Positions 7,680-25,100 of a stretch of 64,000 nt of DNA are shown here, piece after piece. The position numbers were made by a program, and so were the translations under genes. Source of the stretch: Candidatus Omnitrophica bacterium UBA6253 (GTDB lineage: Bacteria > Omnitrophota > Gorgyraeia > Gygaellales > Profunditerraquicolaceae). The stretch is taken from positions 325,504 through 389,503 of the forward strand of contig DJVP01000012.1 in NCBI GenBank assembly GCA_002441245.1. The letters run 5' to 3'. A model generated the notes under the pieces. That model saw only the letters and a program-made list of their open reading frames with translations, was not told the DNA's origin and searched no databases. Position 1 is the stretch's first letter. Each line of letters opens with the position of its first letter.

Positions 7680-10160
7680 TTATTTTAAACCTGCTTCCCT
7701 CATTTTTACCATAGCCTTAACCAATACCTGCCTTACTTCTCCTTCTCCAATCTTAAGGCTTCCGGCAATATCTTTAACATCCATACCTGAAACTTCAACA
7801 GCTATTACTATATCTTTCTCCAAGCTGGTAAGCCTGCTAAATGCATCGGCAACTAAATGGTTTCCAAAACTTCCACCTTTTAAATCTATTATGTCTATAA
7901 GCTCATATTCACTCAAGGCAGTTCTATCCGGCAAAACATCCTTTAAGCTAAACCCCGCAGAATTCGATTCTTCATCAATAGACTTCTGCTTAAAAGAAAG
8001 TTTGTTATTTTCTTTTCTCATTTTAACAAAGAACCTATTCAGCTCCTTTCGTACATAATCTTCAAAATCCGTCCTGAGATTAGAATCAATGCCCGCATAT
8101 TCATCCAGGATATCATACATATATAATATGCCTTCTTGGATTAATTCTTCAATATACCCGTTTTGCGGATTAGCATAATGAGCGGCTACTTCCTTTACCA
8201 GCCAGATATAAGCCTCGATAAATATAGTCCTCGCTTCAAAATTACCACATTTTATTTCATCCAAAAGCCCCAATTGCCGACTTTGTTCAAGATGCGTTTT
8301 TTCATTATAATAATCTTTAATGGTAAAAGGCACTCTTTCGGGAAGCTTTTCTTTGGATATGGCGATCCTCTGCAAACAATATTCAATATAATCCTGTGCC
8401 AAAACAACAATTTCATTTAAGGGGTGAGCCAACCGTATAACCTTATTAAATTCTGCAAGTGCGCGCTTATATCTTTTTTTGGAAATATGTTCTTCCGCCC
8501 GGGCGAATCTGGATTCTATCTCTTTAGATTTTTTTATCTCGTCGTAATGCTTAAGATACGCATTGGTAGATTCCAGAATTTCTCCCGCTGCAGGATCGTC
8601 AATAAACTTGTCTTTAAGCCCTCTTGATACATTTTTGAATATTTTAACAGCTTCAATTAATTTATCTTTTGAAAATAAATCTATGCCCAGATCATAAAGT
8701 CCTTTTAAATTAAATAGCCTTTCCTGGCGTGCAGCTTCGATTTTCCAGGCATGCCTGTCAGCCTTAAAAATACTCCGGCAGTGATCAATATAAATCCTGG
8801 CTTCCCGGGCAAGGTTAATTTCTTCAACTATAGGCACTTTTCTTTTACTTTTAATATAGATTATTCTGGAAAATAATCTTTGCGCTTCTTTATATTTAGT
8901 TTGAGCAAACAACTCTTTGGCCTGGGCATAAAGCCTGCGCGGTTCCTCCATCCTGGAATCATTCCTTAGCCTGGACTTAATGAGCATTTCCCGGCGGATG
9001 CTTTTTCTTACATCAATCACTAAGGGTTCATTATCCAAATTAAATATATAGTTACCTTCTCTATCCTTAATGAACTTGAGAAAGGCCGGCTTGCCGGCAA
9101 TAAATTTTGCTTCTACCCTGGCCAGGGGATAAAGATAAAACCAGCCCCAGTAATTCATAAGATTAAATATGCCACGATTATCCAGGCCTATTTCCGAGGC
9201 TATATAATCTAAAACCTGATTGCCAGCACAATCTACCAGTTTATCGTTGCTCCATCTTTCAAAAACATTGAACATCTCGCCTTTAGCGAACGAATCTTCG
9301 GAGCTATCCTTGGCAGCTTTATACATTAAAGACAACCTTTTCGTAGTTAAAATTTTACCATCTTCAAAGACATCTGCCCCTACGATAAAGGCCTTTTTAC
9401 CTGAAGGATTACGGATATCAAAAATATTTACTCTCTTATAGCTATATTTAGGGCCAAAATCTATCCAGTTTTCCCTCCCGCCTATATTTAAAGAGCCGTC
9501 CTTACTTAAAGGATAATTGTGAATTTCGTATCTTTCATTCAACATATTAAATTCTTCTTCAAAACCTAATTCCACAAAAGACATTGTATAGAATTGCTTT
9601 TCTTTATTCCAAATAAGTGAGAATTCAACATCTAAATCTGAATCTAAAGAGGTAACTCTTCTGACCAATCCGTCTATAACCAAAATTTTTACTCTTTCGT
9701 TGGGATTCTTGTAAAACTTTGCCCAGCGTCTTTTATTTTTGGTCATACTGCCGTCAACAAACGGCCTTCCTCCGCCTATCCATAAACCGCCATCCTTATC
9801 CAGGCAGCCATAAACAGTGACATTTTTGAACTGCGCTAATTTATTGCGTTTTATCTTTTCTAAATACACATCTATTGTCTCCTGGGTAAAATTATCTATT
9901 ATCGGAAAAAATTCCTTGGAAGTGTTGTCTTTAGTCAATAAAATTCTCTGCGGGAAGCCACCCTTTATCTCCAGCAAATATCCGGATTTGTCATAAGCAG
10001 TAAACCTCCCCCAATACTTACCCAACATTAATCTTCCCCCGTTAGCCAATACCCCTCTTATAACCACATGGCCTAATTTCTTTAATTCCTCCAAACTAAT
10101 ATTATAAGGCAGATCACTTTTGTTAATAACCGTAAAAGATGAAAAATACGAAAGATGCTC
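7680..10160 (-). other. Module BA (~827 aa): C-terminal module. Beta-rich and helical/TPR-like region followed by a sigma-70-family (group 3/ECF-like) domain at ~7680-8250.
   Basis: Region 2: IFIEAYIWLVKEVAAHYANPQNGYIEELIQEGILYMYDILDEY. Region 4: LTSLEKDIVIAVEVSGMDVKDIAGSLKIGEGEVRQVLVKAMVKMRE. TAA stop at 7682-7680. Confidence 0.55.
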
Positions 10161-13100
10161 CACCGGCGAACTTCCGCTTTTCTTACTTTTAAACTTAATA
10201 ATTTCATAGCTATTATTTCCGGCACTCCTTAGCTCAACTTTTCCGGTTTTATTAACTTGGGCCATTAATACCCCTAATTCATCTTCACTAAGCATATCTT
10301 GCCTGCCTAAAATAACTCTAAAATAAAGTTCTAATTCATTGGCGTTGACCTTGCCCGAAGTTTGCTCTGCTCTTTTAAATAACCATTCGGTAACGCTTTT
10401 CATTTGTATCTTATTAAAACGTTTGCTTCCTAAAGATACCTCTACCGGAGAGCTAGATATATATATCGCTCTGTTTACAGCCAGTTCTTTTTCCATCATC
10501 TCCCAAATCCGGGGATAATACACCGCTTTTGTATATACCTCTGTAGTGAAATCCCCCAACACCCTTTTCAATAAACCGGATTTAATTGGAGGCGAAACTC
10601 GCTTAATTAATTTAATAGCCCCAATTCCGTTTAAATTTTTATTCGCCATAAGTCCGAGCAATAAACTTGTAAATGCACCGGCAGAAAAAGAGGTTGAGCC
10701 GTTTCCATCGATTGCAGCCATCGCAAAATCTCCCGGCAAGGAATCATCATGAAGTTCCTCTCCTGCCCATGATGACAAGGCTCCGACTGAAATCACGCCG
10801 GGGACACAAGAAGGAAATAGATCGTAAAAAATAGTTTCTTCATTTTTTCTGTTTCCGGCGGCGGCAATAAAAATAATATTTCTTTGAATCAAGCGCTCTA
10901 TCAACTTATAACAATCCAAATCCCGCAAAAGATCAAAATCTCCGGCAAAACTCATATTTATCACTAGTTTAGCTACCGGGTATCTATCCTGAAAATTTGC
11001 TATTTTTACCAAAGCCTCTTTAATCAATATCTTATTCATTGTTCTACCATCTAAATCGCCTACATTAACTGCCCATACATCACATATAGTACCCGGTTGC
11101 GTCCAGACGATTTTCAACACTATATCTCCGTGATACCCATAAAAATTATCAAGTACAAAACAAACAATCCGGCTTTTTGCCTCTGGAACAATTTTCTTTA
11201 TATCGTTTGGCTTAAATACAATATAACCACTCACCGGAGAACTGGAACGGCTTTTCGTAATTACCAACTTTAAACTGACAGTCGCGCCCAGCGATCCCCC
11301 GCTTACGTTTGAGATCATCCCGCGTTTGCCTAAAACTGGGCTCGATGACGAGGCTGCCGGCGAACTAAAATCACCGTCATTAATCAACCTAGAAGAACTA
11401 TCCCTTCCAAAAACAGGAGAGTTTCTCAAAAACATCAGCTCCCGCTGTAACCTCGCAGGCGAACTAGCCCTTAGCACTTCCACAGAGGAAGCGCCATTGC
11501 CTATTCTTATCGTTGCTTCTATCCACGCCCCCGGGAGATTATTATCATTTTTGATTGGTTGACTAAACAATGCTTCCCCGCCTTCGGCCTTCTCCAAAGT
11601 TTGAGTAATATTCCTGGTGTGTACCGTAACTTTACCGCCGTAATAACCTACAAAATCTTTCTTTACATAATAAAGCCCAACCCCTAAACTATTACCTCCG
11701 CTCAATTGTTCTTCAAAAGCTTTCTCTATGGGAATAGAAAATCCTTTTCCGGTATCGCACACACAAACATTATATTCTTCAGCTGTTTGCAATATTAAAA
11801 CCAGCATTTTAGTTTTAACGTGCTTGAAATTATGCAACAGGTGGACAAGGATTGATAAACGTATATCAATAACACCGAGCTTATCTGCTGTTTTACCCAT
11901 ATCTTCATTATTTTCTATTAATTCAGCCAATATTACGCCTTTCCCATTGCGTAAGTTTTCCAATGGATAAACACCTTCCAAAACCTGCATTATCAGATTA
12001 CGTTCAATCAGTGGAGAGGAAACCGGGGAGCTGACGCCCATCCCAGATAAAGGCTTTCCTGCCTGCAATTCCAGCATCCTTCTTGTTTCACCGTTGAGGC
12101 TTTTGACTCTTGCGTTTCTTATCTTTATGCCTGCAAAACCTTTAAACGCGTTCTCCAATGATTCAAAATCAAAAAATCGATATGGCATTCCATTAATATT
12201 AAACCGGTCTTTATGCAGGGGAAGTCCCTTGGCGTATTTATCATCGGCTTTTGAATAAACCATCGCAAAAATCTTTCCTCCCCGCTTAAGCACCCGCCAA
12301 GTTTCATCAACAATGCGCGTCATCTTCTCATCATCAAAAGAAATAAAGCTACAGTTAGCAAAAACCGTGTTAAATTCTTCATCCGGAAAGTTGAACGGCT
12401 CTGATAAATCCTGAATACTCGCAACAAGTCTATGCTGAATACCCTGTCTGGCCGCCTCTTGAGATATCCTGCTGATACAAACAGGAGAAATATCGGTAGC
12501 TGTAACAAAACACCCGATATCCCGGGCTAAGATAATCTCATCCTCTCTTCGTCCACAGCCTAAAGAAAGAACCCTATCTCCGTTTTTAAATAAGTTTTTA
12601 TTCAATAGCCGGCCCATAAATTCGCTCTGCGGCAGACTTATGGCCTGCCAAATCTGAGACCAATTATGTACTTGCTGACTCGCTGTAAGTATTCTGTTAT
12701 CCCTTAAGTAAATAGCCCTAGCAAATGCCTGACGTTCCTTTTGTAGTTTAACCGGCGAGCTGACAGTTGCAACAACAGGATACGGCTTAACCTTTTCCGC
12801 AATCAACCCCATCGCCCCGAGATAGCCTTTAGGGGCAAATATAAAATCATTGACTTGATACCCCCTTAACTCAAAAAGTTTTTTGACTCTCTGAAATTCT
12901 TCTTGATGAGGTGCTTCTATAGACATGCTCAAATACCCGGTATTAATAACTAAATCAAAAGCTCCATCTTCATTAATTATCTCTAATGAATCCCTATTAG
13001 CAGTACCATAATGCCTCCACGGCCCCATATTCAACAATCCGATTAAATTCCCGCTACCACGGAATTTCTGTAAAAAGTTGCTAATCAGCTCTTTTTGACT

Positions 13101-16100
13101 CAAATTTGCATTAAGAATATAAAAATCATCATCTTCTATCCACCCATGTTCTTCCAATATAACTCTTGCGAAACTTACGTTTCGGGAATTATTTTCTATT
13201 AAAATAACCCTGCGTGCCCCCAGGGAAAGTGCTATACAAGAAAGAACACTTGTCCCGGCCCCAAAGTCAACAACAATTGCGTTTTTAAACATTTCTTCTC
13301 TTGCCAGTATCGAGGCAATAGTGGAAACTGTAAAATCATTCAACGGCTGACCAGGCTGGGCTGACCAGGGAGAAATAAAGAAAATGAAATCGGAATGCTT
13401 GATATAAAGATCACCGAGCTTATCTTTATACTGTCTGGCCAATGCCCTCGCCTTCCGAGAAACCGACTCCTGAGACCACCCATAACTATCTGACAAAAGA
13501 ACAATAAATATCATCCGGCCTAACCTGTACATACTTCTGGTAAAATTTCTTTTAAAATTATAATCCTTATCGCCTATCTGTATTTTCCGGTTTCCTTCCA
13601 GGGGGAATCTTGAAAGAAGTTTTTCAATATCCCTGGACACTTGAGCCATCCTTTCCTCAGAAACTATCTCCATATCAGCAGGTACTGTTACCGCCCCAGG
13701 AAGGACAGTAGGAGTATGCGGTGAGATGGATAACCGGCTATGGATATCATCAATAGCCCTTTTAACCAACCGCTCATTTTCCTGCTTAATTCTTATTTCC
13801 AACTCCACGATATCATCCTTAGCTTTCTTTAATGCTGCGATTTTTATGTAAAGATCGCCGCTAAACTCTGGATGGAATCTATTCATTGGTTCCATAATAC
13901 GGTTAAAACTTCTTGCGATATCGCGGGCAACCCCCTTTGCAGACCTTACCACTGGTGAACTGGAGCACACTCCCGCTGCCGCTGCCTGACGCTCATAATC
14001 CGCTTCTTCTTGCGCCAAATTCCGAGTCAATTTGGGCCAAGAAAAACCGCCAACTTTATTAAGGTAAAATGAAACTGTCCGCTCCGGGAAATAACGCACG
14101 ACCGCCCCATGAAGAATGCTAACTTCGGAAAGACCCGCCCTAGTAATGAATAAAATATGCATTTGTTTGGCGAAACAATACAAACTAAAACCTTTACCCA
14201 AAAGTTTTCTTCCGTCGCTCGATAATCCGCCAAAATCCCTGTTCCAATCTTCATACTGGCAGCCAACTCCCAGGGCCAATTTGATATGCGCGCTACTCTG
14301 TTTCGGCACCGCCACATGAAAAATACAACGATCATTATGATAAAAACAGTGCCAATCGTGCCAATCGCTGTTAAAATGCCTCCTCCACTCGATCCCGTGA
14401 CCGACTTGCCCCGGAGATGCCGCGTTTAGCTCAATCCCGGTGACGGCTCCGGAGCCAAAATAAAACAGGAGTTTTTCAAAAGAAGTCAAGGGCTTGGCCA
14501 GATGTTCAAAATCTTTCAGCCGCGCCAGATCGTCTTTGCCAACGTTTCCCAAAATACGCTGCGCTCCATCGAACGCCTTAGACAAACCCAAGGTAGCCCT
14601 ATCAACTACCGTCTTGCGGAAAACCAACAAATGTGCCAGATCGATCTCTGGCGATGTGCGGCCCCTAAACTCAACATCTTCCGAGAGCCTTTTTCCAAAA
14701 ATTTCCTGGAATAAGTTGAGACGCTGAAATAAACCCACCGGAGCCCGTTCTTTAAATTCAGAAACGAACGCCCTTTGATCAAAGACAGGATACAAACTCC
14801 ACATTTTATGAATAGGGCTGGAACAAAGACCATAACGCGCTATAAATTCATCCTTCTTAATCTGCTGTTCAAAAAGATACTCTTCTATACTCCAGGCTGT
14901 TACGCCATCGTCAAAAACATCCCACCGCATATCCCTATGCCCTAAAGTCCTGATTTTGGCCAAGGTTGACTCGTTCCTTAATTCAGGATCATTCTGCAGT
15001 AATCTCTTAATTCCAAAAACCCTTAATTCATGGCCAAGGCCTACAAAACGGCGGGCTTCTAATTCAGGCAGCCTATTCCAAGGTGATATCTCCATGACTG
15101 CATAGCGGATATTCTGATATAAACTCGAGAAACCAACATCCAAATCAACCCAACCTTCTATTTCTAGTTTTTCATTATCAAAAGACAGGGCTAAATATAG
15201 TTGGCCTAAGCCTTCTGACTGCCACTCAAGAAAATCCCTGTAAGCTATTACATCCGAAATATGCTCTGTCTCAGGCTTTCCGTCAAACGATATCCATCTA
15301 TTAAAACTATTTGCCGCAGATAATTTCATAGCAGCATTTAATGATTTTGCCATTACCACCGGTAATTCCACCATAACCTTTCCGGCATGATTATGGCCAA
15401 GGACCACTACCTTGCCTTCCAAACCAATACCGCCATAAATCTGCGATTGAATGGTTTCTTTTACCGGTGAACTGGAACGCAGCTTAAGCGGTAAAGATGA
15501 ATAAGCTGGCTCAACATTTTTATAATAGCGCGCTAGCGTCGCCAGGGTAATATCGTCTTTTTCATTCCTGGCTTTCTTTTCCATATCTTCTAATATTTCT
15601 CCTCTGGTTTTCAAAATACCTCTTGAAACCAAACTCTCTATTCTTTTCTCCATTTCAGCGATTAATTCATCAATGGTTAAATAACCTCTTATCAACCCAT
15701 TCCGCCTGGCGGCCTGCAAAAGAGGAAGAAAATCAGTATTTTCCGAAACCTCGATATCAAGCTTTAATGCCAGACAGGATTTTTTAACTAAACCCCATAA
15801 AGAACTATAAGATGACCTACCCTGTATATCCATAATCTCGGCAAGGCTCTTACCGCAAGCCAATAACCTCAATATCTGCAGCTTGGCTAAACCAAATTTC
15901 TCCTGCTGTACCTTAGCCTGCAAAACAGATAAATCAAGTTCTTTAGGAATCTGGCCCATGCCCTGTAATGATTTTATTAAAACCAGGGATGTAGCGAATG
16001 GCTTTTTATGGCTCCCATTTTTTAACGTTATATTAATATTTTGTTTTCCTGCTCTTTTCTTGATATATGCCGGGCCGCATAAAACATCGCTCCTTGCTAT

Positions 16101-19100
16101 GCCAAGTTCATGATTAATTTCTTCAAAAGAAAGCCCTTTGGCTCTTAGCTTTAACGCGTTTATCTGCACATTTGAAAGGAATATTACCGCATTACGCGCA
16201 GAAGCGAACAACTTCATTTCTACCGCCCGCTTCAGGATTTTCTCAACAACTGCCGGGCCAAAACCCTTATCATCAATGCCAAACTTCCTTTTAATCCCGC
16301 GGATATGCCTCTTATTTGCATCCACCTTCACATATCTACTGCTTGCAATATCCCTGGATCTTACCTTTCCTTCCCGCATGAAGGCTAAAATATCTTTCTC
16401 CGCATCAGTTAACGGATTAACCAAAATATCAGGATAGATCTGCCTTGTTTTTTCTATTAATTGCGGCCAGGACTTCCTAATTTTACGTTCCAAACCAAAA
16501 GCATCAAGTATGGAATAAACGATTATTCTTACCGTTCCCTGATGGCTTAAATTTAAGGCACTGCCTATCACTTTATAAGGCTCCCGTTGGCACAAAAGTT
16601 TCAAGGTGACCAATTGACGCTGGTTAAATAACGGTTCAGCAACATATGCGCCCACCGGCGAGCTACTTGTAAATTCCCGGTTGATTTCAAGATATGCTTC
16701 CGGTTTCAAAGGAGTGAAATAAACAGGCCCGTAATAATCGTCTCCCCTAGTCCACCAGACTCCTTTTAACCCAGGTCCATAGGCATTGGAGTATTCTGGG
16801 CGGTTTCCTGCCTGGAGTACGGCCCTTACCAACTCTTGCGCAGGAATTTCAACATAACGCTCCAACCACCTTGGCCAATCATACTCAGAATCAGGAGGCT
16901 CTTGATGAACCAAATCTTTGATCCGAGACGTTTCATCTATTGAAGGAATATCTTTTGCATGTAATGAAGCGCAATAACCTGAACCTAAAAGTGAATTAAG
17001 TATAGTTCCCGGAAAACTATCATTAAACTCTGGCACATTGGGATACCCTTTCAATAGTTCATCTTGCGCCAAGAATGCCACTCGTACAGCTTCATCAACA
17101 AGGTTGTAATATCTGTCTCCACCATCTCTTCCTAGGGAAGACAAACTATTTGTTCTATCAGGGCCGTATGTTTTAGGAAGACCGATAATATCGCAATTCA
17201 ACCAGCCCTGCCAAACAATAGCATCGAAATCATAACCCCTGCTTCTTTCCTGGGGCTGCATTAAGTCTTCGAAGAATATTTTAATCATTCCTGCCAATTT
17301 ACGGCTCTGGAGATTGGTAAAACGGACTGAATGACCCAAGCGTAAGGCCTCTAACCGCAGAAATTCAAGCACACTCAAACCTATTCCTTTATATTCACCC
17401 TTCCCTCTGCTGTTAAGGGTATATATCACGGGTATGCTTATCTCTTTATATTCTGGATCTATTACTATATTCACGCGGTTACCTCTATGGAACTGGCCAT
17501 TAAAACCTATAGAATATAATAAATCAATTTTCTCTTCCCCTTTAGGCTCTCCATCTAAAACTAATTCAATGCCTATATTGTGATCCAATATATTCCTAAA
17601 TGATATTTTGCTTTCTCCTAAAGCGCCGGCCACATTAATATCAACCGGCGAACTACTCTTTTTTTCAATTGTTCCTGGATCTAATGCCGCAGCGGCTTTT
17701 TTGATAGATAGAAATACATCCAGCATGTAAAAATTACTCTCATATAAAACTTTCATGTCTATAGGATACGCAACCGCCTTGCTTATTCCCGGAAACGGAA
17801 AAATATGTACGCGCATGTTGTCAAACCAGCTTCTCTGCTGGTCTTTAACTGTGTAATTATCGCTATCGATAATCTTTACATCTAAATCGGTTTCTGATGT
17901 TATCGGCCACGGCTCACAAGACATGAATCTTTTAAGAATACCTCCATAGATATAGCAAGGAGGCAATAAACGGCCTTTCTGCTCATACAAACCTTTAACC
18001 TCTCTCAATACTATTTTCAGGTTAGTATTTAACAACCAGAGGGATTGCAAGAATTCATCAGATATACCGCCAGGCACCCTTGCACGATACTCTATCATTA
18101 TTTCTTGCGGGATAACTGGATCCTGAGGTACAGAGCTGTCTGGTAATGGGCTTGAGACAGATAACGGCAAGGCGGCAATAGCCATCTCCTTAAAGGTATC
18201 GTTACTTAAAAATGCGGGGTGCGCTACAGGCGAACTGGAAAGGTGCAATTTTATGCCTTCCTTGCGGTAGACTCCCACAAGGCGATTAACAACAGGCTGA
18301 AGAACTATAAATTCCCCTTTGCCATTCTTGTCAAAAGTAACGTTCCCCGGATTTTGCTCAAATTCCCTGGAAAGAAAACTGTGCCCGCTCTTAGTAATAA
18401 AAACACCCTCTCCGCTACCCATAGCCTCCTTGAATGTACGAACAGGTTTTTCTTCCAGCAGGTCTCGATAAACCAGGTAATATAGCCCCCAAAGCCCTTG
18501 CTTAAATAACTCAAACCAGCAAGGAGACAGGTCTTTCTTTATGGCTGGGAATTTCCCGCAGATTCTCGGCTTATCCCTGTCTTGGTATATTTTGCAGGAA
18601 GAAACGAATGTAAGGCCGGTGCTATTTGAGAAATCCAGGATTATCTGCAGCGCCCAACAGGGAAACCCTGAAACAAGATTAGATTGACCTATAATCGAAT
18701 AGCGCTGTTTAGGCTTGAGGTCGCCGATTGCAAAATACTCTCTTGTATATGGGCAATCTTTGCCATATTTTCTTCTAAGCACCTTTTTGATTTCTTCCGG
18801 AATCCATTCATCCCTAAAAAAACAACAGGCGGCGTCAACACATAAAAATCTCCTTCCCGGCATACTTCGAAACATCACCGGAATATCCTTTCCTGCCGGC
18901 GAACTGCTATACAGGCGCAACCTGATTACCGTTCCCTTATTATATTCACTATCAATCTCAAGTTCGCTTTCAATACCAAAAACATCCTCTATGCTGTTTA
19001 GATTACGTATACCTACTCCGGGGCTGCCTTTTTTGACAAAATCACCAGCGAGTATGGCTTCCACATCATCCATGCCGCTTCCATGGTCTATAGAAGTTAC

Positions 19101-22100
19101 TTCAAATACTTTACTGTCTGCATGATCCCCATAAATCTTCACCAGGAAAATACCCCAAATTGCATGCCTCCATATATTAGTCAATAATTCTTCTATGATA
19201 ACCCTGAAAGGATTCTCGTATTCATCAAAATCAAATCCTGAATTATTCAATAAAAGCATTATCCCCTGTTCAACATCTGCTGCTAAAGCCTCACCTTTAC
19301 TGGATAGCTCTATAATATTCTTATGTTCATTCGAATTGAGATAGCTATCATCCAAATCATCTTCCTCTATGACCCAGGCATTCATAAACAAATTCCTGCC
19401 CTGTTGTCTTGCCCTATCAATCATACCCCTGGCTAACTCTAAATTATTATCCCAGACCGCGTCCTGCAATAGATCAACGTCGATTACATCTGAAACAGGG
19501 ATGATTAGCGATGGGTTTGAATCAGATAGCGGCAATGCGGCAACCGGAGAGCTGGGATGATTTAAGAACTGTTCAAATTCTTCTACCCCTGCTCTGCCCC
19601 GTGACCATTCTTTAAGTTTATTTTTATATACCAAGAGGTCTTTAAAACCTGTCCGCCTGATATATTCCGCAAGCGGCCCAAAGTAGTTATTATTCTTTTT
19701 GTTAAATTGCCTGACTGTGGCATCCATAACAAATACGGCATCTTTATTTACAAAAAGCAATACGCAATGAAAGTTTCCGCATACCCAACCGCTAACCAAT
19801 AAAGAAGGAATGGAAAACTCCCTGAATAATTTATCCGGGATAAGCGAACAGGCTAATTCACAGGTTTGCTCCCGGGTTAACGGGAGACGGGATATTTCTT
19901 CTTCCATGTCTCGGGCTATACTCGGCCGGTTATTTCTCAGGGTTTCATTCTTAACTTCCTCCAGTTGCGTGATTCTTATCGCTATCGCCTCCCTGGCTGC
20001 CTCCTCCATGATCCTTTCGGCATCCTGGTATGAAATTGCCGGCCTGGCTGCTGGTGAGCTAACAACTGTATTAGCGCTGAAAGAAACCTCACAAGCATGG
20101 TATGACCACAGCCAGGGGTTAAGTTCATTTTGCGAAACCAATAGTCTCTTAATTTCACCCCTATCTTTCATTTCTTTAATCCATTTCGCTACTGGCTGGT
20201 TAACGGGTGTTAAGATCATAAATTCGTCGCATCCGGACTTTTTAAGCATAGCCATCATTTCTGACCACATTTTTTTACCGATGCCCCTGTGCTGAAACTC
20301 AGGATGCACCGCTATGGTAAGAATTTCCGCATCACAGAGATCTTTTCCGTCACGGCCGCATACCCCTAATATCCCTATCAATTCCCCTTTATGGAAATCC
20401 AGTATAAAAGTACATGTAGGATTAACAAGCACATCCCTATCCAAGCTGCTTATGTGGAATGAAGATAGCCCCGCGGACTTAAGTAAATCCAATATCTCTT
20501 CCCAGAAAGTAAAAAAACCATTGCCCCCCACAATCACTGTTATATTCTCAAGATCGTTTTTCTTCTCCCTCTCTATCGGAGAACTGGATATTTGCCCCGC
20601 GCCGGGCATACCAAAATTGAATTCTCCTTCTGATAACATCAGCCTATGCCCGGAACCAGACACAAATATATTTCCTTTGATTTTTTCTAAACCCCTGGGG
20701 AAACTTCCAAGCTGCATAACTGCAGTAAATCGGTCTCTTTGGCCTTCAATATAAAAATTAAAATCATGCCTTAAATCACAGGGATAAAACCCTGTATTTA
20801 ACTGGGCAGGCCTGGAATAGCGCTCCTCATACGGCTTATCATCGACATTTATCTGCACCAAGCCATTCTCTCGGTAATGTATGTACACCCTATGCTGCGT
20901 GTTATCATAAAATATAAAAGTAAACTCCGGGCTCTTACGGTTTACCCTAACCGCAATCGCGTCATTTTTGTGAACAAGTTCTATGCGGAAAGAATCGGCA
21001 CTGTGCTCTATTCTATTTTTTTTGCTTGCCGGAGACTCGCTAAAACCAGCATTAGCTTCTAAAATCCTCCTGAAGAATAGCCAGCATTTTGTTCCGGATA
21101 TATCCCAGCTTTCCCTGGCTGGCACAGCTTCAAATACATTCTTAATTTTTCCTGTAATCTTGCTGATAAAATCCTCAAACCGGACACTCCCTATGTTAAG
21201 ATATTGCCTGGAAATAGCCGGAACAATCCTGGCAATAGGAATGCGGTTAGCTGCCAAGAAGCTTTTTATTTTACGGATCTCGCTTTCAATCTGCCGGTCA
21301 TCCATGTTAAAAATATTCGCCCAAAATGCCATTCCGCCGATAGATAACCTCGTCCTTAATGAAAAGAAATCAAAGCAGAAGGTCAGCCATATTTCCTTGA
21401 CTTCACCGCCATTAAGATAGCCCTTGATTTTCTCTAAAATAACCCCTCGCTCATCACAAGCAGACCAGTTTGTCCTGGTTGCTCTTGCATTGTTAGAACC
21501 ATCGTAATATGACCTAAACCAGACTAAATATCCTAATCCATCCTTCTCCATCCTGCTGCCCCAGTTACCTATATTACGAAGCAGGCTATTGCCTAAATCA
21601 TAATCTTCATGTGCGTCCGCATTAAGCACCAGTATTTTCCCGCCTAATTCTTTAGCCCTGATTTTTATAAGATCATAAATGTCAGAATGGTCTTCAATCG
21701 GCTGATTAAGGATTACGACTTTTACCGGAGAGCTGGAACGCTTACGCAAGCTGGCTTGCTCCAGAGAATGTTCGTATAGTTCCGGGCGCGGGTTTTCGGA
21801 CGCGGGAAGCTTGCGGAGAATTATTTCTATTATTGTGGCGTTATCAGGATAAAATCCGCCCTGGACCCCCTCTATTAATCCTTCTACCCTTAAAAGGAAT
21901 TGCCGGCCCAGCTCGCTAAGGATACCCCGGTTAGCTATTAATAACGCCCTGGTTTTTAGCAACTTATTTATCACAGAATCTGTTTCATCCGGGTAATCTG
22001 AAGCCGAAATAGGCGAGCTGGTTATATGAGCTATCGGCTTACAGGCTTCATCAAGGAAAAGGAGTTCCTGATTATAATCCTTTCGGGTTTTCAACCATCC

Positions 22101-25100
22101 TGCAAATTGATTGACCAACTCCTCTATCTGCTGGCGATGGTTTAATTCGGTTTCTGAAATGGTATAACCTGCATCATTGCCCTCAGCAAGGCTTAAGGCT
22201 TCATCAAAAAAATCAAACTCTACTTCTTTTAACTTCGGGTAATATTCCGCCGCTTTTTCAGCTAATGTGGAAGGCGCATAGTAAAGAAGTTCCTGCAGCT
22301 CCCTGAAATAAACCATCAGGCGGCGAGTGGCTTCGGAAAATTGATTAGTAATATCAAACAGCGCTGCTACTTCGGGATCATCGAATTCATCATCAAACTC
22401 CAGATCTCCGGTCTGAACCAGTTTGCTACCAGCCTCTATGTGCTTCTTATACAACAAGGTAGAGAAATATATAGCTAACTTCCTGGAAGGATAAGCAATG
22501 CCTGCCTGAAGCTTATACTTTTTTATGAATTCCGCATTATTTCTTATCCTGGCAAAATTACTCTCCTTACAGAAATTAATTAACCCTATACGGACAACAA
22601 TACCTAACCCCTGGAGGATTTCTATGGCCTCCCTGTTTTGCTCCCGGGTTATGCCCTTTCTAAAATATTTTAATTCCTCATTATTATCACTTTCTACGCC
22701 TACAAATACCTGTTTTAATCCCGCTTCCTGCAGAAGGGCGAAAATCTCTCTGCCTGCCTTACATACAGCATCAGCCCGGGTTAATATCCAGAAACTTATT
22801 TTTAAACCTCTTTCGATAATCCCCTCGGCTATGGCCCTGGCCCTTTCCGGGTCAGTACCAATAAAATCATTATCCAGAATATCAAATCCGGTTCCTCCGA
22901 ATTCCCGGTGAAGAAATTCTATTTCATCGACCACTCTTTTTGCAGAACGCGGCCGCCATAATAAATCTTTTAATTTTGCGCCCTCCTTACGGTTTTCCGC
23001 CTGGGCTTCATTAAAAAAGCAGTGCTCGATGCAAAAAGTGCAATTTCCGGGGCATCCGTAGGAAGTATCCAGCATAATCTTATTAGAAAACATATCCGAG
23101 CCAGTCTGCACTATGCCCCAATCCAGAAAAGGCAAACTATCCAACTCTTCTGTGGTTAAGACACGGTTCGGGTTAATGACTATCTGCCCCTCCGGCCCGC
23201 GGTAGATAATATTTTCCACTCCCGCAAGGCCCTTGCATTCAGATAATGCCCTTACCGCCCCCAATAAAGCAAACTCCGCTTCACCGGCAATAATAAAATC
23301 TATATCTGGGATTTCCTTCAAGAGCTCACCCTTACAAACAGCAGGCAGATGGCCTCTGGCACAGATAAAAAATCTTTCTTCCGATTTTAGCTCCCGGGGC
23401 AGATAACTAAGGAACTCGACAAAATACGTTTTATCTCCTGGAAACAAATTTAAACATATAAATATCTGTTTTTCGGGATAGCTATTAGCGAGTGTGGTTA
23501 TTTTAACGGACAGGTCTTCGGCTGCAAGATTAAGGTTATTTGCATCAATAAATTCGGTAGGGATCTTATTCTCTTTTAAGAAAGCGCTTACCCTGGCAAA
23601 TCTTAATGGTTTTACGCCTCTGACAGAACTATGATGGTTTGCATTTACTAAAACTACTATAGGCGGGCCGGTTTCGGACAATTCCCTTATCCCATTTAAA
23701 ATCTCGCGATGTCCGTTACCGATATCGCTCTTTGCTCCCACAAGGCCGTTTTTGTGCGGGTCATTGCCTAACAATGGATTATCGTAGAGATGCCTCTGGT
23801 TTCTTACTATCGGCGAGCTGACAGCAGGCATTACATGATATGCGCCATAATTTCTCTCCTCGAGCATGCGTTGCGCAATAAAACCATATTTCTCAACTAT
23901 CTTAAATAGATCATTCTCCGTTACTGCAGGATTCCAGTCATCCGGAGATACAAAAAACTCAATGGGCCATACGACTATCGCCCTTCCTGCCACATTAAGG
24001 TACGCTCCTAATTCTTGAAAGAACCTGTCAGCTATATTTTTTCGTTCAGGCCAACCGGAAAAATTACATGCCACCAAATCAAATCTTTCCTCTCCCAAAT
24101 CAGTAAAAAGATCACCTTGTACAACCCTTATACTCTCAAATAACCCGAATTGTTTGATATTTTCCCTCGCGGATTGTACAGCGCGCTTGTCGATATCTAC
24201 GGCTACCCCAGAACCTCCGGCAAGTTGATTAATGCGTATGGATAATATCCCCGTGCCGCAACCTATATCCACAAAATTAATTCCAGGGCACTGGGGAATC
24301 TCATTAAAAAATAACTCCAGCGCTTTTAAACTCAAAATAGTTGTAATCTCGGGAATGTGGATACCCTTATAGGCAAAAAGGTCCCTACCTAAATGCGGAC
24401 TAAAGAAAACTGTTTTTTCTGATTCAATTTTAGACCCTATAATCGCATCATTTGCCGTCGGAGAAATAGGCTGCTGTGACACTGGCGAAGAAATACACAT
24501 AAGATTATTACATTTCAATACGCCTGTAAATAAACCCCTTATTAGCTCCTCTGCTGTTTTCTCCCCTCCATTACTAACCCAAATTTCTTTTAAGCTATCC
24601 CCCTCTTCTTCTATCGCTCTCTCAAACTCATATTCGGCCTGCCCCCAGAAAGCACGAATATTTTTTGGTTTACCAATTACGTCTTGCTGACATAATAGCC
24701 TTAAACAACCTGACGTATACGTGAATAAGTGCCTTCCCGTAACTAACCAGTAAATAATTCCGGCCATGGCATAATGTATTTCAGATTCAATTACACGCAC
24801 CGAATGAGATCCATATATCCTTCTCAAAGAAAAAGTGTCTATAAAACAGGTGATGGAAGAGAATTTATTAGGGGTTTCCGGCAGGCGCGCTACCTCTTCC
24901 TGTTCTACCCGCAAGCTGTTGGAATCTTTAGCTACATAGATAGTCTGGGGGGTTAAATTTACCGCTCTTAATCCTGTTTTTGAGAGTACTTGCTTTAAAT
25001 AGATACACTCCTCTATTAATGATGCTAAGAATACTGACTTCTCTCTCAGGAGCTCTGCTCTTGTCGTTTCTATCAGCTTTATTAAGTCGCCGGCTATCCC

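What the first reader, a model, noticed from the sequence alone, without database searches (positions are those of the whole stretch)
10457..11232. Subtilisin-like (S8) protease module embedded in the polyprotein and bracketed by clustered junctions and mini-peptides: a candidate processing protease.
The only protease-like module in the ORF has subtilase motifs AAAGN, VISVGA and GTSFSAGAFTSLLLGL. It sits 90 aa from the C-terminal sigma module. Within 260 aa upstream of it are four junction motifs separating two ~28-aa peptides (11248-11450). Immediately downstream are two further junctions. This local density of sites around a protease resembles autoproteolytic release cassettes in viral polyproteins. 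One caveat: the Asp/His spacing is atypical, so activity is uncertain.
Basis: partly seen in the sequence, partly recalled or inferred. Interest (0 to 1): 0.8.

Follow-up and report, generated by a model that had tools for sequence, protein, structure and literature searches.

The report
Subtilisin-like protease inside bacterial polyprotein
A compact subtilisin-type protease with all its catalytic residues sits inside a 19,000-residue bacterial gene that strings about fifty unrelated enzymes together. The enzymes are separated by a repeated Ser-Ser-Ser-Pro-Val motif, so this protease is the obvious, still unproven, candidate for cutting the giant protein into working pieces.

Summary
Window 10443-11231 (minus strand) encodes a 263-aa unit of a giant ORF (7680-63938; at least 18,752 aa here, called as 19,001 aa elsewhere) from a Candidatus Omnitrophota MAG.

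The unit is a real S8 subtilase domain:
- Pfam alone is borderline (20.6 bits against a cut-off of 21.8).
- A profile built from 17 relatives, all PF00082-positive, scores 95.7 bits (E 3e-31).
- The AlphaFold model (pLDDT 72) matches PCSK9, proteinase K and subtilisin.
- Asp17597, His17603, Asn17696 and Ser17750 are all conserved.
- The "atypical" short Asp-His spacing is a shared trait of this compact, prodomain-less clade.

The SSP[V/I/L/A] motif is real and acts at the peptide level:
- 48 copies against about 1 expected, with synonymous codon variation.
- 0 copies in 5,580 aa of neighbouring proteins.
- It never interrupts any of 27 Pfam domains.
- It marks the exact breakpoints of whole-module gains and losses between sister strains.

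A second, distant polyprotein fragment (P0023) also carries a compact S8 flanked by clustered SSSPV sites.

The processing role stays inferred. The site clustering near the S8 is only marginal (P about 0.03-0.05). Sister strains carry other modules in this slot, although the rest of their ORFs was not available. No cleavage data exist.

Verdict: partly supported; a new variant of a known kind.

The parts
7680..63938 (-). Giant ORF (18,752 aa within the window; open at its 5' end, 19,001 aa in a complete contig). It is a multi-enzyme polyprotein of a Candidatus Omnitrophota bacterium.
   Evidence: Pfam tiling of more than 25 unrelated families.
10443..11231 (-). The junction-delimited S8 unit (aa 17570-17832, 263 aa), ending in its own C-terminal SSSPV.
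   Evidence: AlphaFold model with pLDDT 72.3 and pTM 0.72. Foldseek matches to PCSK9, proteinase K and subtilisin BPN' at probability 1.0.
10566..11186 (-). The subtilase catalytic core (aa 17585-17791) matched by the clade profile.
   Evidence: 95.7 bits, E 3e-31, the only hit in the ORF. Pfam PF00082 at 20.6 bits, E 3e-4.
11148..11150 (-). Catalytic Asp17597 (in VLDNF), at the end of strand beta-1.
   Evidence: Invariant column D29 in A1 and D15 in A2. pLDDT about 92.
11130..11132 (-). Catalytic His17603 (in YHGD). It aligns with His64 of subtilisin BPN'.
   Evidence: Invariant column H35. Profile alignment to PDB subtilisins.
10851..10853 (-). Oxyanion-hole Asn17696 (in AAAGN). It aligns with Asn155 of subtilisin BPN'.
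   Evidence: Invariant column N128..
10689..10691 (-). Catalytic Ser17750 (in GSTSFSAG). It aligns with Ser221 of subtilisin BPN'.
   Evidence: Invariant column S182..
11232..11246 (-). Upstream junction SSSPV (aa 17565-17569), immediately before the S8 unit.
10443..10457 (-). Downstream junction SSSPV (aa 17828-17832), at the end of the S8 unit.
11232..11333 (-). Mini-peptide 2 (aa 17536-17569, 34 aa: LGKRGMISNVSGGSLGATVSLKLVITKSRSSSPV).
11334..11453 (-). Mini-peptide 1 (aa 17496-17528, 33 aa, ending in SSPA) plus a 7-aa remnant ASSSSPV (aa 17529-17535).
11454..12008 (-). The preceding unit (aa 17311-17495), a histidine-kinase-like ATPase domain ending in ASSPA.
   Evidence: HATPase_c, E 3.4e-5.
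12009..12032 (-). Double junction SSPVSSPL (aa 17303-17310).
   Evidence: It is conserved in L007 and L009.
10161..10442 (-). A 94-aa unit (aa 17833-17926) ending in GSSPV. It is conserved in the sister strains.
7683..10160 (-). The terminal 826-aa unit (aa 17927-18752), with a TPR repeat and a C-terminal sigma-70-like region (Pfam region 4).
   Evidence: About 85% identical in L007 and L009.

Best explanation
Window 10443-11231 (minus strand) encodes a compact subtilase (peptidase family S8) with no prodomain. Its catalytic residues are Asp17597, His17603 and Ser17750, with oxyanion Asn17696. It is one of about 53 junction-delimited units of a roughly 19,000-aa multi-enzyme polyprotein of an Omnitrophota bacterium.

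The units are separated by the peptide motif S-S-S-P-[V/I/L/A]. The most likely mechanism is that this motif is a proteolytic maturation site read as P5-P1 by the subtilase's non-prime-side cleft, with the cut after the Val.

Inferred sequence of events. The S8 unit first frees itself at its two perfect SSSPV flanks. The N-terminal cut lies 27 residues before the catalytic Asp, much as in pro-subtilisin autoprocessing. The released S8 then cuts the other junctions in trans, including on nascent chains, releasing the individual enzymes and regulators and leaving short spacer peptides.

Shown here: the fold, the catalytic residues, the clade membership, the statistics of the motif, the motif's coincidence with domain and indel boundaries, and one independent co-occurrence.

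Inferred: that cleavage happens, where the scissile bond lies, and that this S8 is the enzyme.
For: S8 identity:
- All 17 aligned relatives are PF00082-positive. A profile built from them hits only aa 17585-17791 (95.7 bits, E 3e-31).
- The invariant columns include D29, H35, N128 and S182.
- A profile-to-PDB alignment places His, Asn and Ser on His64, Asn155 and Ser221 of subtilisin BPN'.
- The AlphaFold model has pLDDT 72 and its best Foldseek matches are subtilases at probability 1.0.
- The 6-residue Asp-His spacing is shared with P0018 and P0019.

Junction motif:
- 48 SSP[VIAL] against 1.06 expected.
- The codons vary synonymously, so the signal is in the peptide and not the DNA.
- 0 motifs in 5,580 aa of neighbouring proteins.
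- 0 of 27 Pfam domains are interrupted (P about 2e-6). Full-length domain models start 5-16 aa after a motif.
- Met is not enriched after junctions, so the units are not started independently.
- Whole-module indels between strains that are 97-99% identical, and homology blocks between species, begin and end exactly at the motif.
- Internal duplications respect the motif.

Link between S8 and motif:
- It is the only peptidase family detected in the ORF.
- Both of its flanks are perfect SSSPV, and the densest site cluster of the ORF lies just upstream.
- P0023 (TRZ94487.1) is a 1,796-aa fragment of another SSSPV polyprotein, about 26% identical in the S8. It carries the same compact S8 with three junctions within 30 aa upstream.
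- Giant ORF tails without the motif (L022, L023, L015) have no S8.
- A four- to five-residue motif with no conservation on the prime side fits subtilase P4-P1 recognition (established knowledge).
- NisP, an S8 leader peptidase, recognises A-S-P-R as P4-P1, which is the same Ser-Pro at P3-P2 (PMC5812297).
- West-Roberts et al. proposed that S8 or C39 domains might cleave Omnitrophota giant proteins but had no cleavage points.
Against: - There is no direct evidence of cleavage.
- In the sister strains L007 and L009 the junctions are conserved, but the S8 slot holds other modules. No S8 occurs in the last ~4,300 aa of their ORFs. The rest of those ORFs was not obtainable.
- The S8 therefore sits in a variable, accessory-looking slot.
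- The clustering of sites near the S8 is only marginally significant.
- The two embedded S8 modules are not each other's closest relatives. These polyproteins sample many enzyme families, so the co-occurrence could be incidental.
- Free-standing clade members carry signal or transmembrane segments and, in the one case checked, sit in an ordinary neighbourhood.
- The Gly-Thr-Ser-x-x-x-Pro signature is degenerate here (STSFSAG: Gly219 to Ser, Pro225 to Gly).
- The direct Pfam score is below the curated cut-off.
- The protease lies near the C-terminus, so it is made last.
Confidence: 0.4

Rival explanations
1. The S8 is cargo. The junctions are maturation sites, but they are cut by another protease: one encoded elsewhere in the genome, or an unrecognised module of the ORF. 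The S8 unit is just one of the roughly 50 released enzymes and has its own substrates.
For: - The S8 occupies a variable slot that holds GNAT-like, unknown or NUDIX modules in the sister strains, while the junction motifs stay conserved.
- Roughly half of the junction-delimited units have no significant Pfam match and could hide a novel protease.
- The embedded S8 modules are not a dedicated clade.
- Related loci encode a Tricorn/PD40-like protein beside the giant gene.
Against: - No other peptidase family was detected in 18,752 aa, even at E <= 0.5.
- The independent P0023 polyprotein again pairs SSSPV junctions with a compact S8 and an adjacent site cluster.
- A 4,300-aa sample of a roughly 19,000-aa ORF would be expected to miss a single S8 most of the time, so its absence there says little.
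Confidence: 0.25
2. The junctions are not cleaved. S-S-S-P-V is a conserved inter-module linker or seam, for example a rigid Ser/Pro hinge, a modification site, or a boundary that tolerates recombination. The giant protein works as one mega-enzyme, and the S8 domain acts on other proteins.
For: - Module indels and duplications break exactly at the motif, so it could mainly mark evolutionary seams.
- Giant multi-enzyme ORFs at the syntenic locus of related species have no such motif at all (L022 and L023), so giant proteins can exist without it.
- There are no data on mature products.
Against: - Linkers are normally variable in length and composition. Here a strict ordered tetrapeptide or pentapeptide recurs about 50 times with synonymous codon drift, which points to recognition by a binding site.
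- Short 4-34-aa pieces between adjacent motifs make little sense as linkers.
- Units include membrane-anchored or N-terminus-dependent proteins placed right after a junction, for example the Bac_transf unit with an N-terminal hydrophobic helix in P0023.
Confidence: 0.25
3. The S8 is an inactive pseudo-protease. The domain keeps the fold but serves as a binding or scaffold module, in the way that mature PCSK9 does.
For: - The direct Pfam score is below the cut-off.
- The best structural matches are PCSK9 chains.
- The Ser-motif signature is degenerate (Gly219 to Ser, Pro225 to Gly), and a roughly 26-residue segment before the Ser motif is deleted relative to the clade.
Against: - All four catalytic positions are retained in a sequence only 22-29% identical to its relatives. 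That is unexpected without selection for catalysis.
- The catalytic residues lie in the confident parts of the model.
Confidence: 0.08

Closest known systems
Subtilases (MEROPS/Pfam family S8, PF00082), especially the uncharacterised compact clade found here (for example NLE28742.1, 'S8 family serine peptidase [Phycisphaerae bacterium]')
   Same: The Asp-His-Ser order, the oxyanion Asn, the AAAGN and GTSF-type motifs and the subtilisin fold are shared. So are the short Asp-His spacing and the lack of an I9 prodomain.
   Different: The module is embedded in a giant ORF, whereas the relatives are free-standing with signal or transmembrane segments and HEAT tails. About 26 residues before the Ser motif are deleted. 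The signature reads STSFSAG instead of GTSFAAP. Identity is only 22-29%.
Bacillus/Planococcus intracellular subtilisin proteases (ISPs)
   Same: Both are cytoplasmic S8 enzymes without the classical prodomain, carrying only a short N-terminal extension that is processed (PMC6220982). An ISP was the best direct PDB sequence hit (7xr8).
   Different: ISPs are stand-alone proteins with a LIPY/F inhibitory motif and normal Asp-His spacing. No LIPY/F motif is present here (sequence).
Lanthipeptide leader peptidases LanP (for example NisP), which are S8 enzymes
   Same: An S8 protease recognises a short non-prime-side motif with Ser-Pro at P3-P2 (ASPR cut after R, against SSPV here). Some LanP enzymes are cytoplasmic (PMC5812297).
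   Different: LanP enzymes remove one leader from a small peptide and are encoded in lanthipeptide gene clusters. No such genes are present here. P1 would be Val rather than Arg or Gln.
Kex2/furin proprotein convertases and the cyanobactin proteases PatA/PatG (S8 enzymes that cut multi-copy precursors at repeated motifs; from general knowledge)
   Same: An S8 protease matures a multi-unit precursor at a short repeated junction motif, leaving spacer peptides.
   Different: In those systems the protease is a separate gene product acting on small secretory or RiPP precursors. There is no P-domain here. The junction is not dibasic. The cargo is about 50 full-size cytoplasmic enzymes.
Viral self-processing polyproteins (picornavirus 3C, flavivirus NS3, alphavirus nsP2; from general knowledge)
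   Same: One ORF holds many autonomous units, a short conserved junction motif and an embedded protease flanked by its own sites.
   Different: The viral proteases are chymotrypsin-like or papain-like, not subtilases. This is a cellular genome. Cleavage is not demonstrated here.
Omnitrophota giant genes (West-Roberts et al. 2023, bioRxiv 10.1101/2023.11.21.568195; the 'multi-enzyme metabolic cluster' class in bioRxiv 10.64898/2026.06.07.730766)
   Same: Same phylum, same architecture class (methyltransferase, HATPase, GNAT, HAD, HD, starch synthase, radical SAM and ROK modules), and the same idea that S8 or C39 domains might cleave the protein.
   Different: [quoted passage not shown] Here a discrete motif partitions the ORF and brackets the S8.

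Membership tests
Peptidase S8 (subtilase, PF00082) | Catalytic triad in the order Asp, His, Ser | tested here: met
   D29, H35 and S182 of the module (aa 17597, 17603, 17750) are invariant columns in alignments with 17 and 11 relatives. His and Ser align to His64 and Ser221 of subtilisin BPN'. The Asp is assigned from the V-x-V-L-D motif at the end of strand beta-1.
Peptidase S8 (subtilase, PF00082) | Oxyanion-hole Asn (Asn155 of subtilisin BPN') | tested here: met
   N128 (aa 17696, in AAAGN) is invariant and aligns with AAAGN-E of subtilisin.
Peptidase S8 (subtilase, PF00082) | Alpha/beta subtilisin fold | tested here: met
   The AlphaFold model built with 18 sequences has pLDDT 72.3 and pTM 0.72. 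Foldseek against the PDB gives PCSK9, proteinase K and subtilisin BPN' at E 3e-9 to 1e-6, probability 1.0, TM 0.5-0.59.
Peptidase S8 (subtilase, PF00082) | Score above Pfam's gathering threshold | tested here: inconclusive
   The direct score is 20.6 bits against a cut-off of 21.8, and only profile positions 107-182 match. All 17 relatives pass PF00082 (best E 4e-29). A profile built from them scores the module at 95.7 bits.
Peptidase S8 (subtilase, PF00082) | Peptide-bond hydrolysis | not testable with these tools
   This needs expression of the unit and an activity assay.
Classical secreted subtilisins (S8A with an I9 propeptide) | N-terminal I9 inhibitor/chaperone prodomain and about 30 residues between Asp and His | tested here: not met
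   Only 27 residues lie between the upstream junction and the Asp. There is no Inhibitor_I9 hit at E <= 10. The Asp-His spacing is 6 residues.
Kexin/furin proprotein convertases (S8B) | A P-domain after the catalytic domain, and dibasic cleavage sites | tested here: not met
   No P_proprotein hit. The junction motif is SSSP[V], not K/R-R.
LanP lanthipeptide leader peptidases | Encoded with lanthipeptide precursor and modification genes | tested here: not met
   No LanB, LanC, LanM or precursor families were found in the ORF or its neighbours.
Self-processing polyprotein (viral type) | Several autonomous functional units in one ORF | tested here: met
   More than 25 unrelated Pfam families tile the ORF, most as near full-length domain models.
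Self-processing polyprotein (viral type) | A conserved short motif at unit boundaries | tested here: met
   There are 52 SSP[VIALMCT] sites. 0 of 27 domains are interrupted (P about 2e-6). Indel and homology breakpoints fall at the motif.
Self-processing polyprotein (viral type) | An embedded protease that co-occurs with the motif in relatives | tested here: inconclusive
   Present in the window and in P0023. Not seen in the last ~4,300 aa of L007 and L009, whose upstream parts are unavailable. Tails without the motif lack an S8.
Self-processing polyprotein (viral type) | Demonstrated cleavage at the motif by the embedded protease | not testable with these tools
   This needs biochemistry or proteomics.
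Omnitrophota 'multi-enzyme metabolic cluster' giant proteins | At least 10,000 aa, many distinct Pfams with none dominating, and Omnitrophota origin | tested here: met
   18,752 aa here, 19,001 aa in full. Pfam tiling. Neighbouring proteins are named Candidatus Omnitrophota/Omnitrophica bacterium.

The most novel reading that the evidence does not exclude
A cellular organism uses a virus-like expression strategy. About fifty housekeeping, carbohydrate-metabolism and regulatory proteins of an Omnitrophota bacterium are translated as one 19,000-aa polyprotein. They are released at S-S-S-P-[V/I/L] junctions by a compact subtilase carried in the same polyprotein. The junctions also serve as the seams at which whole genes are inserted, deleted and duplicated in frame.
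Probability: 0.33. Interest if true: 0.9.

Novelty: new variant of a known kind. Interest (0 to 1): 0.72.

Why it matters
Whether the giant proteins of Omnitrophota act as single chains or are cut into many products is an open question. West-Roberts et al. stated it explicitly and noted that no cleavage points were known.

This locus supplies a concrete answer that can be tested:
- a discrete junction motif that partitions the ORF into protein-sized units;
- a catalytically intact protease bracketed by perfect copies of that motif.

If confirmed, it would be a bacterial example of polyprotein gene expression for ordinary cytoplasmic enzymes. It would give a rule for cutting giant ORFs into their real products during annotation and structure prediction. 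It would also yield a new sequence-specific subtilase that cuts after Ser-Ser-Pro-Val, with possible use as a tool.

The exact coincidence of module gains and losses with the motif also suggests a mechanism by which such genes grow.

Tried and rejected
Searches and models that gave nothing useful:
- AlphaFold on the single sequence was useless (pLDDT 42).
- The word-indexed protein search with the S8 module found nothing, not even the gene itself, so giant or truncated products seem absent from that database.
- Searching it with the clade alignment or with the S8 of P0023 returned only free-standing subtilases.
- The same scan with the C-terminal alignment returned only L009, a near-identical strain of L007.
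- The genome scan found only L007.
- Walking into sister giant ORFs through neighbouring genes reached either contig ends or unrelated giant tails without the motif.

Ideas that were tested and rejected:
- A DNA-level or RNA-level origin of the junction. The codons of the motif vary synonymously, and the other reading frames lack it.
- Independent translation starts after the junctions. Met within 10 aa occurs at 7 of 52 sites, which is the chance level.
- A proteome-wide compositional cause. There are 0 motifs in 5,580 aa of neighbouring proteins.
- A possible JAMM-like metalloprotease (HTHS...SPSRAD) in the module that replaces the S8 in L007. Neither Pfam nor PDB supports it.
- The tandem 183-aa modules (aa 12302-12667) as a hidden cysteine protease. 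There is no Pfam or PDB hit.
- Free-standing relatives as trans-acting partners of neighbouring giant genes. P0010 sits in an ordinary neighbourhood.

Literature: no paper in the library links SSSPV, or 'polyprotein', with Omnitrophota.
Full report
**1. What is at the coordinates**

The finding (10457-11232) lies on the minus strand inside one enormous ORF, 7680-63938, of 18,752 aa. The frame stays open up to the window edge. On a 289-kb ENA contig the same gene is called as 19,001 aa. The identical sequence was assembled independently in at least six datasets from NCBI, ENA, JGI and Logan, so it is not an assembly artefact. Neighbouring proteins are named Candidatus Omnitrophota/Omnitrophica bacterium by NCBI.

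AAAGN and VISVGA are present exactly. The third string is really GSTSFSAGAFTSLLLGL.

**2. The giant ORF is a string of unrelated enzymes separated by one peptide motif**

Pfam tiles the ORF with more than 25 unrelated families. They include:
- PRK, PMI, ribulose-phosphate 3-epimerase, carbamoyltransferase, ROK and HAD;
- HD/RelA-SpoT, starch synthase, GH77, amylo-1,6-glucosidase and CofD;
- several methyltransferases, radical SAM and GNAT;
- HATPase_c, LuxR/GerE HTH arrays and sigma-70 region 4.

The tetrapeptide SSPV occurs 28 times against 0.19 expected. SSP[VIAL] occurs 48 times against 1.06 +/- 1.1 in shuffles. The residue before the motif is Ser in 25 of 48 sites, and nothing is conserved after it.

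The motif is selected as a peptide and not as DNA:
- Its codons vary freely (TCA/TCT/TCG/AGC/AGT, CCN, GTA/GTG/GTT).
- The other reading frames have between 0 and 11 copies, against 52 in the coding frame.
- It is absent from 5,580 aa of neighbouring non-giant proteins in this and sister genomes. About 15 copies would be expected at the giant's density.

Cutting at the 52 SSP[VIALMCT] sites gives 53 units, mostly of 130-800 aa.
- None of the 27 Pfam domains is interrupted (P about 2e-6 under random placement).
- Full-length domain models begin 5-16 residues after a motif, as seen for CofD, HAD, HD_4 and PMI.
- Three degenerate SSS[S/A][I/L] sites fall on Pfam boundaries inside the one long motif-free stretch.
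- Met is not enriched after junctions (7 of 52 sites, the chance level), so the units cannot be initiated independently.

**3. The module is a real subtilase with an intact active site**

Direct evidence is weak. Pfam PF00082 gives E 3e-4 and 20.6 bits, below the 21.8 cut-off, and matches only the central third of the model. The best PDB sequence hit is an intracellular serine protease at E 0.005.

An exhaustive HMMER scan of 1.84 billion representative proteins found only 23 relatives (best E 1.8e-8, 28-40% identity over the matched stretches). The 17 that I aligned are all PF00082-positive (best E 4e-29).

In the alignment the invariant columns are D29, H35, N93, S95, G127, N128, P141, T181 and S182. 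These include the catalytic Asp, His and Ser and the oxyanion Asn, at aa 17597, 17603, 17750 and 17696.

A profile built from the 17 relatives without the query hits the giant ORF once, at aa 17585-17791, with 95.7 bits and E 3e-31. A profile-to-PDB alignment puts the family's sHGxxV, AAAGN and GTSfaaP onto His64, Asn155 and Ser221 of subtilisin BPN'.

With the alignment, AlphaFold gives pLDDT 72.3 and pTM 0.72, and the catalytic residues lie in blocks of pLDDT 79-92. Foldseek returns PCSK9, proteinase K and subtilisin BPN' at probability 1.0.

P0018 and P0019 have the same six-residue spacing, and most other members have eight to ten. The clade has no I9 prodomain.

Three features are peculiar to this module:
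- a deletion of about 26 residues before the Ser motif;
- STSFSAG in place of GTSFAAP;
- a helical C-terminal extension.

**4. Evidence that links the protease to the junctions**

(a) It is the only peptidase family detected in the 18,752 aa, even when every unannotated unit is scanned separately at E <= 0.5.

(b) Both of its flanks are perfect SSSPV. The densest junction cluster of the whole ORF lies directly upstream: six sites in 264 aa, delimiting peptides of 33, 7 and 34 aa.

(c) There is an independent case. P0023 (TRZ94487.1, a 5.4-kb contig) is the C-terminal 1,796 aa of another polyprotein.
- It has 13 [S/A]SP[V/A] junctions between methyltransferase, Bac_transf and other units.
- It contains a compact S8 of the same clade (227 bits to the clade profile, about 26% identical to ours).
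- Three junctions lie within 30 residues upstream of that S8.

(d) Giant ORFs at the syntenic locus of related Omnitrophota (L022, a 17,736-aa gene; L023, a 7,033-aa gene) have 0 motifs and no S8 in their last ~3,260 aa.

(e) The shape of the motif fits how subtilases bind P4-P1 (established knowledge). Four to five conserved residues are followed by no prime-side preference. The S8 leader peptidase NisP recognises A-S-P-R as P4-P1, the same Ser-Pro at P3-P2 (PMC5812297).

(f) If the cut is after Val, the new N-terminus lies 27 residues before the catalytic Asp. That is close to the 31 residues in mature subtilisin BPN', whose N-terminus is created by autoprocessing (general knowledge).

**5. 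Evidence that weakens the link**

The clustering is only marginal: P about 0.03 for 6 sites in 264 aa, and about 0.05 for 8 sites in 630 aa.

A sister species provides two contigs that are 97-99% identical to each other: L007 (labelled 'uncultured Planctomycetales' MAG) and L009. They share blocks 77-86% identical with the window, and each block starts and ends exactly at a junction.
- The stretch holding the mini-peptides and the S8 (aa 17492-17828) is replaced there.
- L007 has a weak GNAT-like unit plus an unknown 263-aa unit in its place.
- L009 has that unknown unit plus a NUDIX unit.
- No S8 is found in the last ~4,300 aa of either ORF.

The S8 therefore sits in a hot spot of module turnover. 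The mini-peptides could be scars of module loss rather than a release cassette. L009, for example, has a 24-aa piece where L007 has a 283-aa unit.

The absence of an S8 in the sister strains is not decisive. A 4,300-aa sample of a roughly 19,000-aa ORF with one S8 would miss it about three times out of four, and the upstream parts could not be fetched.

The two embedded S8 modules are no closer to each other than to free-standing relatives. The free-standing relatives have signal or transmembrane segments, and the one neighbourhood checked was ordinary.

**6. Module dynamics**

Between L007 and L009 there are four whole-unit indels whose breakpoints are the motif itself. For example:
- L007: ...DYSDKS|SSSPA|[197 aa]...ACM|SSSPV|KETIQ
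- L009...DYSDKS|SSSPV|KETIQ

Inside the window's ORF, a two-unit block (aa 8706-9304) is duplicated at aa 15433-16159 with the junction preserved. Two 183-aa units are tandem paralogues. Units therefore behave as independent genes that are kept in frame. This supports the view that they function separately, but it does not by itself prove cleavage.

**7. Mechanism proposed and its status**

Most likely (confidence about 0.4): S-S-S-P-[V/I/L/A] is a maturation site read as P5-P1 by the embedded subtilase. The enzyme frees itself at its two perfect flanks and then cuts the other junctions in trans. Because it lies near the C-terminus, enzyme released from earlier chains would act on later or nascent chains.

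- Shown: the fold, the catalytic residues, the clade, the statistics of the motif, the boundary coincidences and one independent co-occurrence.
- Inferred: the cleavage itself, the scissile bond and the identity of the enzyme.

The rivals are listed separately: the S8 as cargo with another protease doing the cutting (0.25), uncleaved seams (0.25), and a pseudo-protease (0.08).

**8. Comparison with what is known**

As a protein it is a new, divergent member of family S8. It belongs to an uncharacterised compact clade and functionally resembles the intracellular subtilisins, which lack a prodomain (PMC6220982).

As a system it most resembles S8-mediated maturation of multi-unit precursors (Kex2 or furin, PatA/PatG, LanP) and viral self-processing polyproteins. 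It is not a member of any of these:
- there is no P-domain;
- there are no RiPP genes;
- the genome is cellular;
- the protease is a subtilase, not a chymotrypsin-like or papain-like enzyme.

West-Roberts et al. [quoted passage not shown] A 2026 preprint defines the 'multi-enzyme metabolic cluster' class to which this ORF belongs, without any mention of a motif or of cleavage. No paper in the searchable library links SSSPV or 'polyprotein' with Omnitrophota.

**9. Verdict**

- Novelty: a new variant of a known kind.
- Interest is 0.72. The locus turns an explicitly open question, whether giant bacterial proteins are cut and where, into a simple experiment. The central functional claim is still an inference.

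Noticed in passing
L007 aa 1121-1318, 1536-1819 and ~2872-3062 of the translated ORF, against L009 aa 1617, 1834-1858, 2903 and 3171-3329: Two sister-strain contigs that are 97-99% identical in DNA differ by four whole-unit insertions or deletions. The breakpoints are exactly the SSSP[V/A] motif, so the junction acts as an in-frame seam for gaining and losing genes.
   Followed up: yes
window 36027-37823 (aa 8706-9304) and 15462-17642 (aa 15433-16159), minus strand: A two-unit block (an unknown unit plus a LuxR/GerE HTH-array unit) is duplicated inside the ORF at 33% and 62% identity. The junction between the two units is preserved.
   Followed up: partly
window 25938-27035 (aa 12302-12667), minus strand: Two tandem paralogous 183-aa units (37% identical) share conserved Cys-x-x-Cys and (H/Q)INP motifs. 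There is no Pfam or PDB match, so the function is unknown.
   Followed up: partly
L022 1-9827 and L023 1-9764 (syntenic loci of related Omnitrophota): Upstream of the same PilZ / ABC-transporter / GH2 gene cluster, related species carry completely different giant ORFs (17,736 and 7,033 aa). Their last ~3,260 aa have no SSP[V] motif, no S8 and no similarity to this ORF. The giant gene at this locus is hypervariable.
   Followed up: partly
L010/L011 458-2008 and 2070-5996: In one relative, two ordinary genes lie between the giant ORF and the PilZ genes. One encodes a 516-aa protein. The other encodes a 1,308-aa PGK protein that NCBI names a type II glyceraldehyde-3-phosphate dehydrogenase. Neither has any junction motif.
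   Followed up: no
window 58002-58016, 53586-53600 and 52890-52904 (aa 1981, 3446 and 3678), minus strand: Degenerate junction-like sites SSSAI, SSSSI and SSSSL (3 against 0.3 expected) sit on Pfam domain boundaries inside the only long stretch without SSP[V] (aa 1613-4153). That stretch holds PMI, RPE, carbamoyltransferase, ROK and HAD.
   Followed up: partly
P0023 (L008) aa 247-279 and 1621-1636: The other SSSPV polyprotein repeats a mini-peptide that starts EKIVG(A)T after two different junctions. The one before its S8 (EKIVGATVVMRGAASPV) loosely resembles the window's mini-peptide 2 (...SLGATVSLKLVITKSRSSSPV). It may be a short strand that docks on the protease, but this was not tested.
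   Followed up: no
L007 aa 3062-3325 and L009 aa 2903-3171 of the translated ORFs: The unknown 263-aa unit that occupies the S8 slot in the sister strains contains HTHS...(31 aa)...SPSRAD, reminiscent of a JAMM metalloprotease motif with an insertion. Pfam and PDB give no support.
   Followed up: partly
window 7683-12008 and 18894-19541, minus strand: The 3' end of the ORF is regulatory in flavour. There are two HATPase_c-like units (of the kind seen in anti-sigma-factor kinases). The terminal unit ends in a sigma-70-like region (Pfam region 4, with a region-2-like stretch seen by eye). GC content is also lower there (0.37-0.39 against about 0.42).
   Followed up: no
window 63939-64000: The giant reading frame has no stop up to the window edge. 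The GTG at 63938 is therefore not the true start: the complete gene is 19,001 aa, so about 249 N-terminal residues lie outside the window and were not examined.
   Followed up: partly
module residue before FPSCVPGV (about aa 17707); clade consensus x-YPA: In the profile alignment to subtilisin BPN', the position equivalent to Gly166 (the floor of the S1 pocket) is Leu or Met in this clade. That would predict a small S1 pocket and a small or medium P1 residue such as Val. This is a lead from the alignment and from recalled mutagenesis literature, not a tested result.
   Followed up: no
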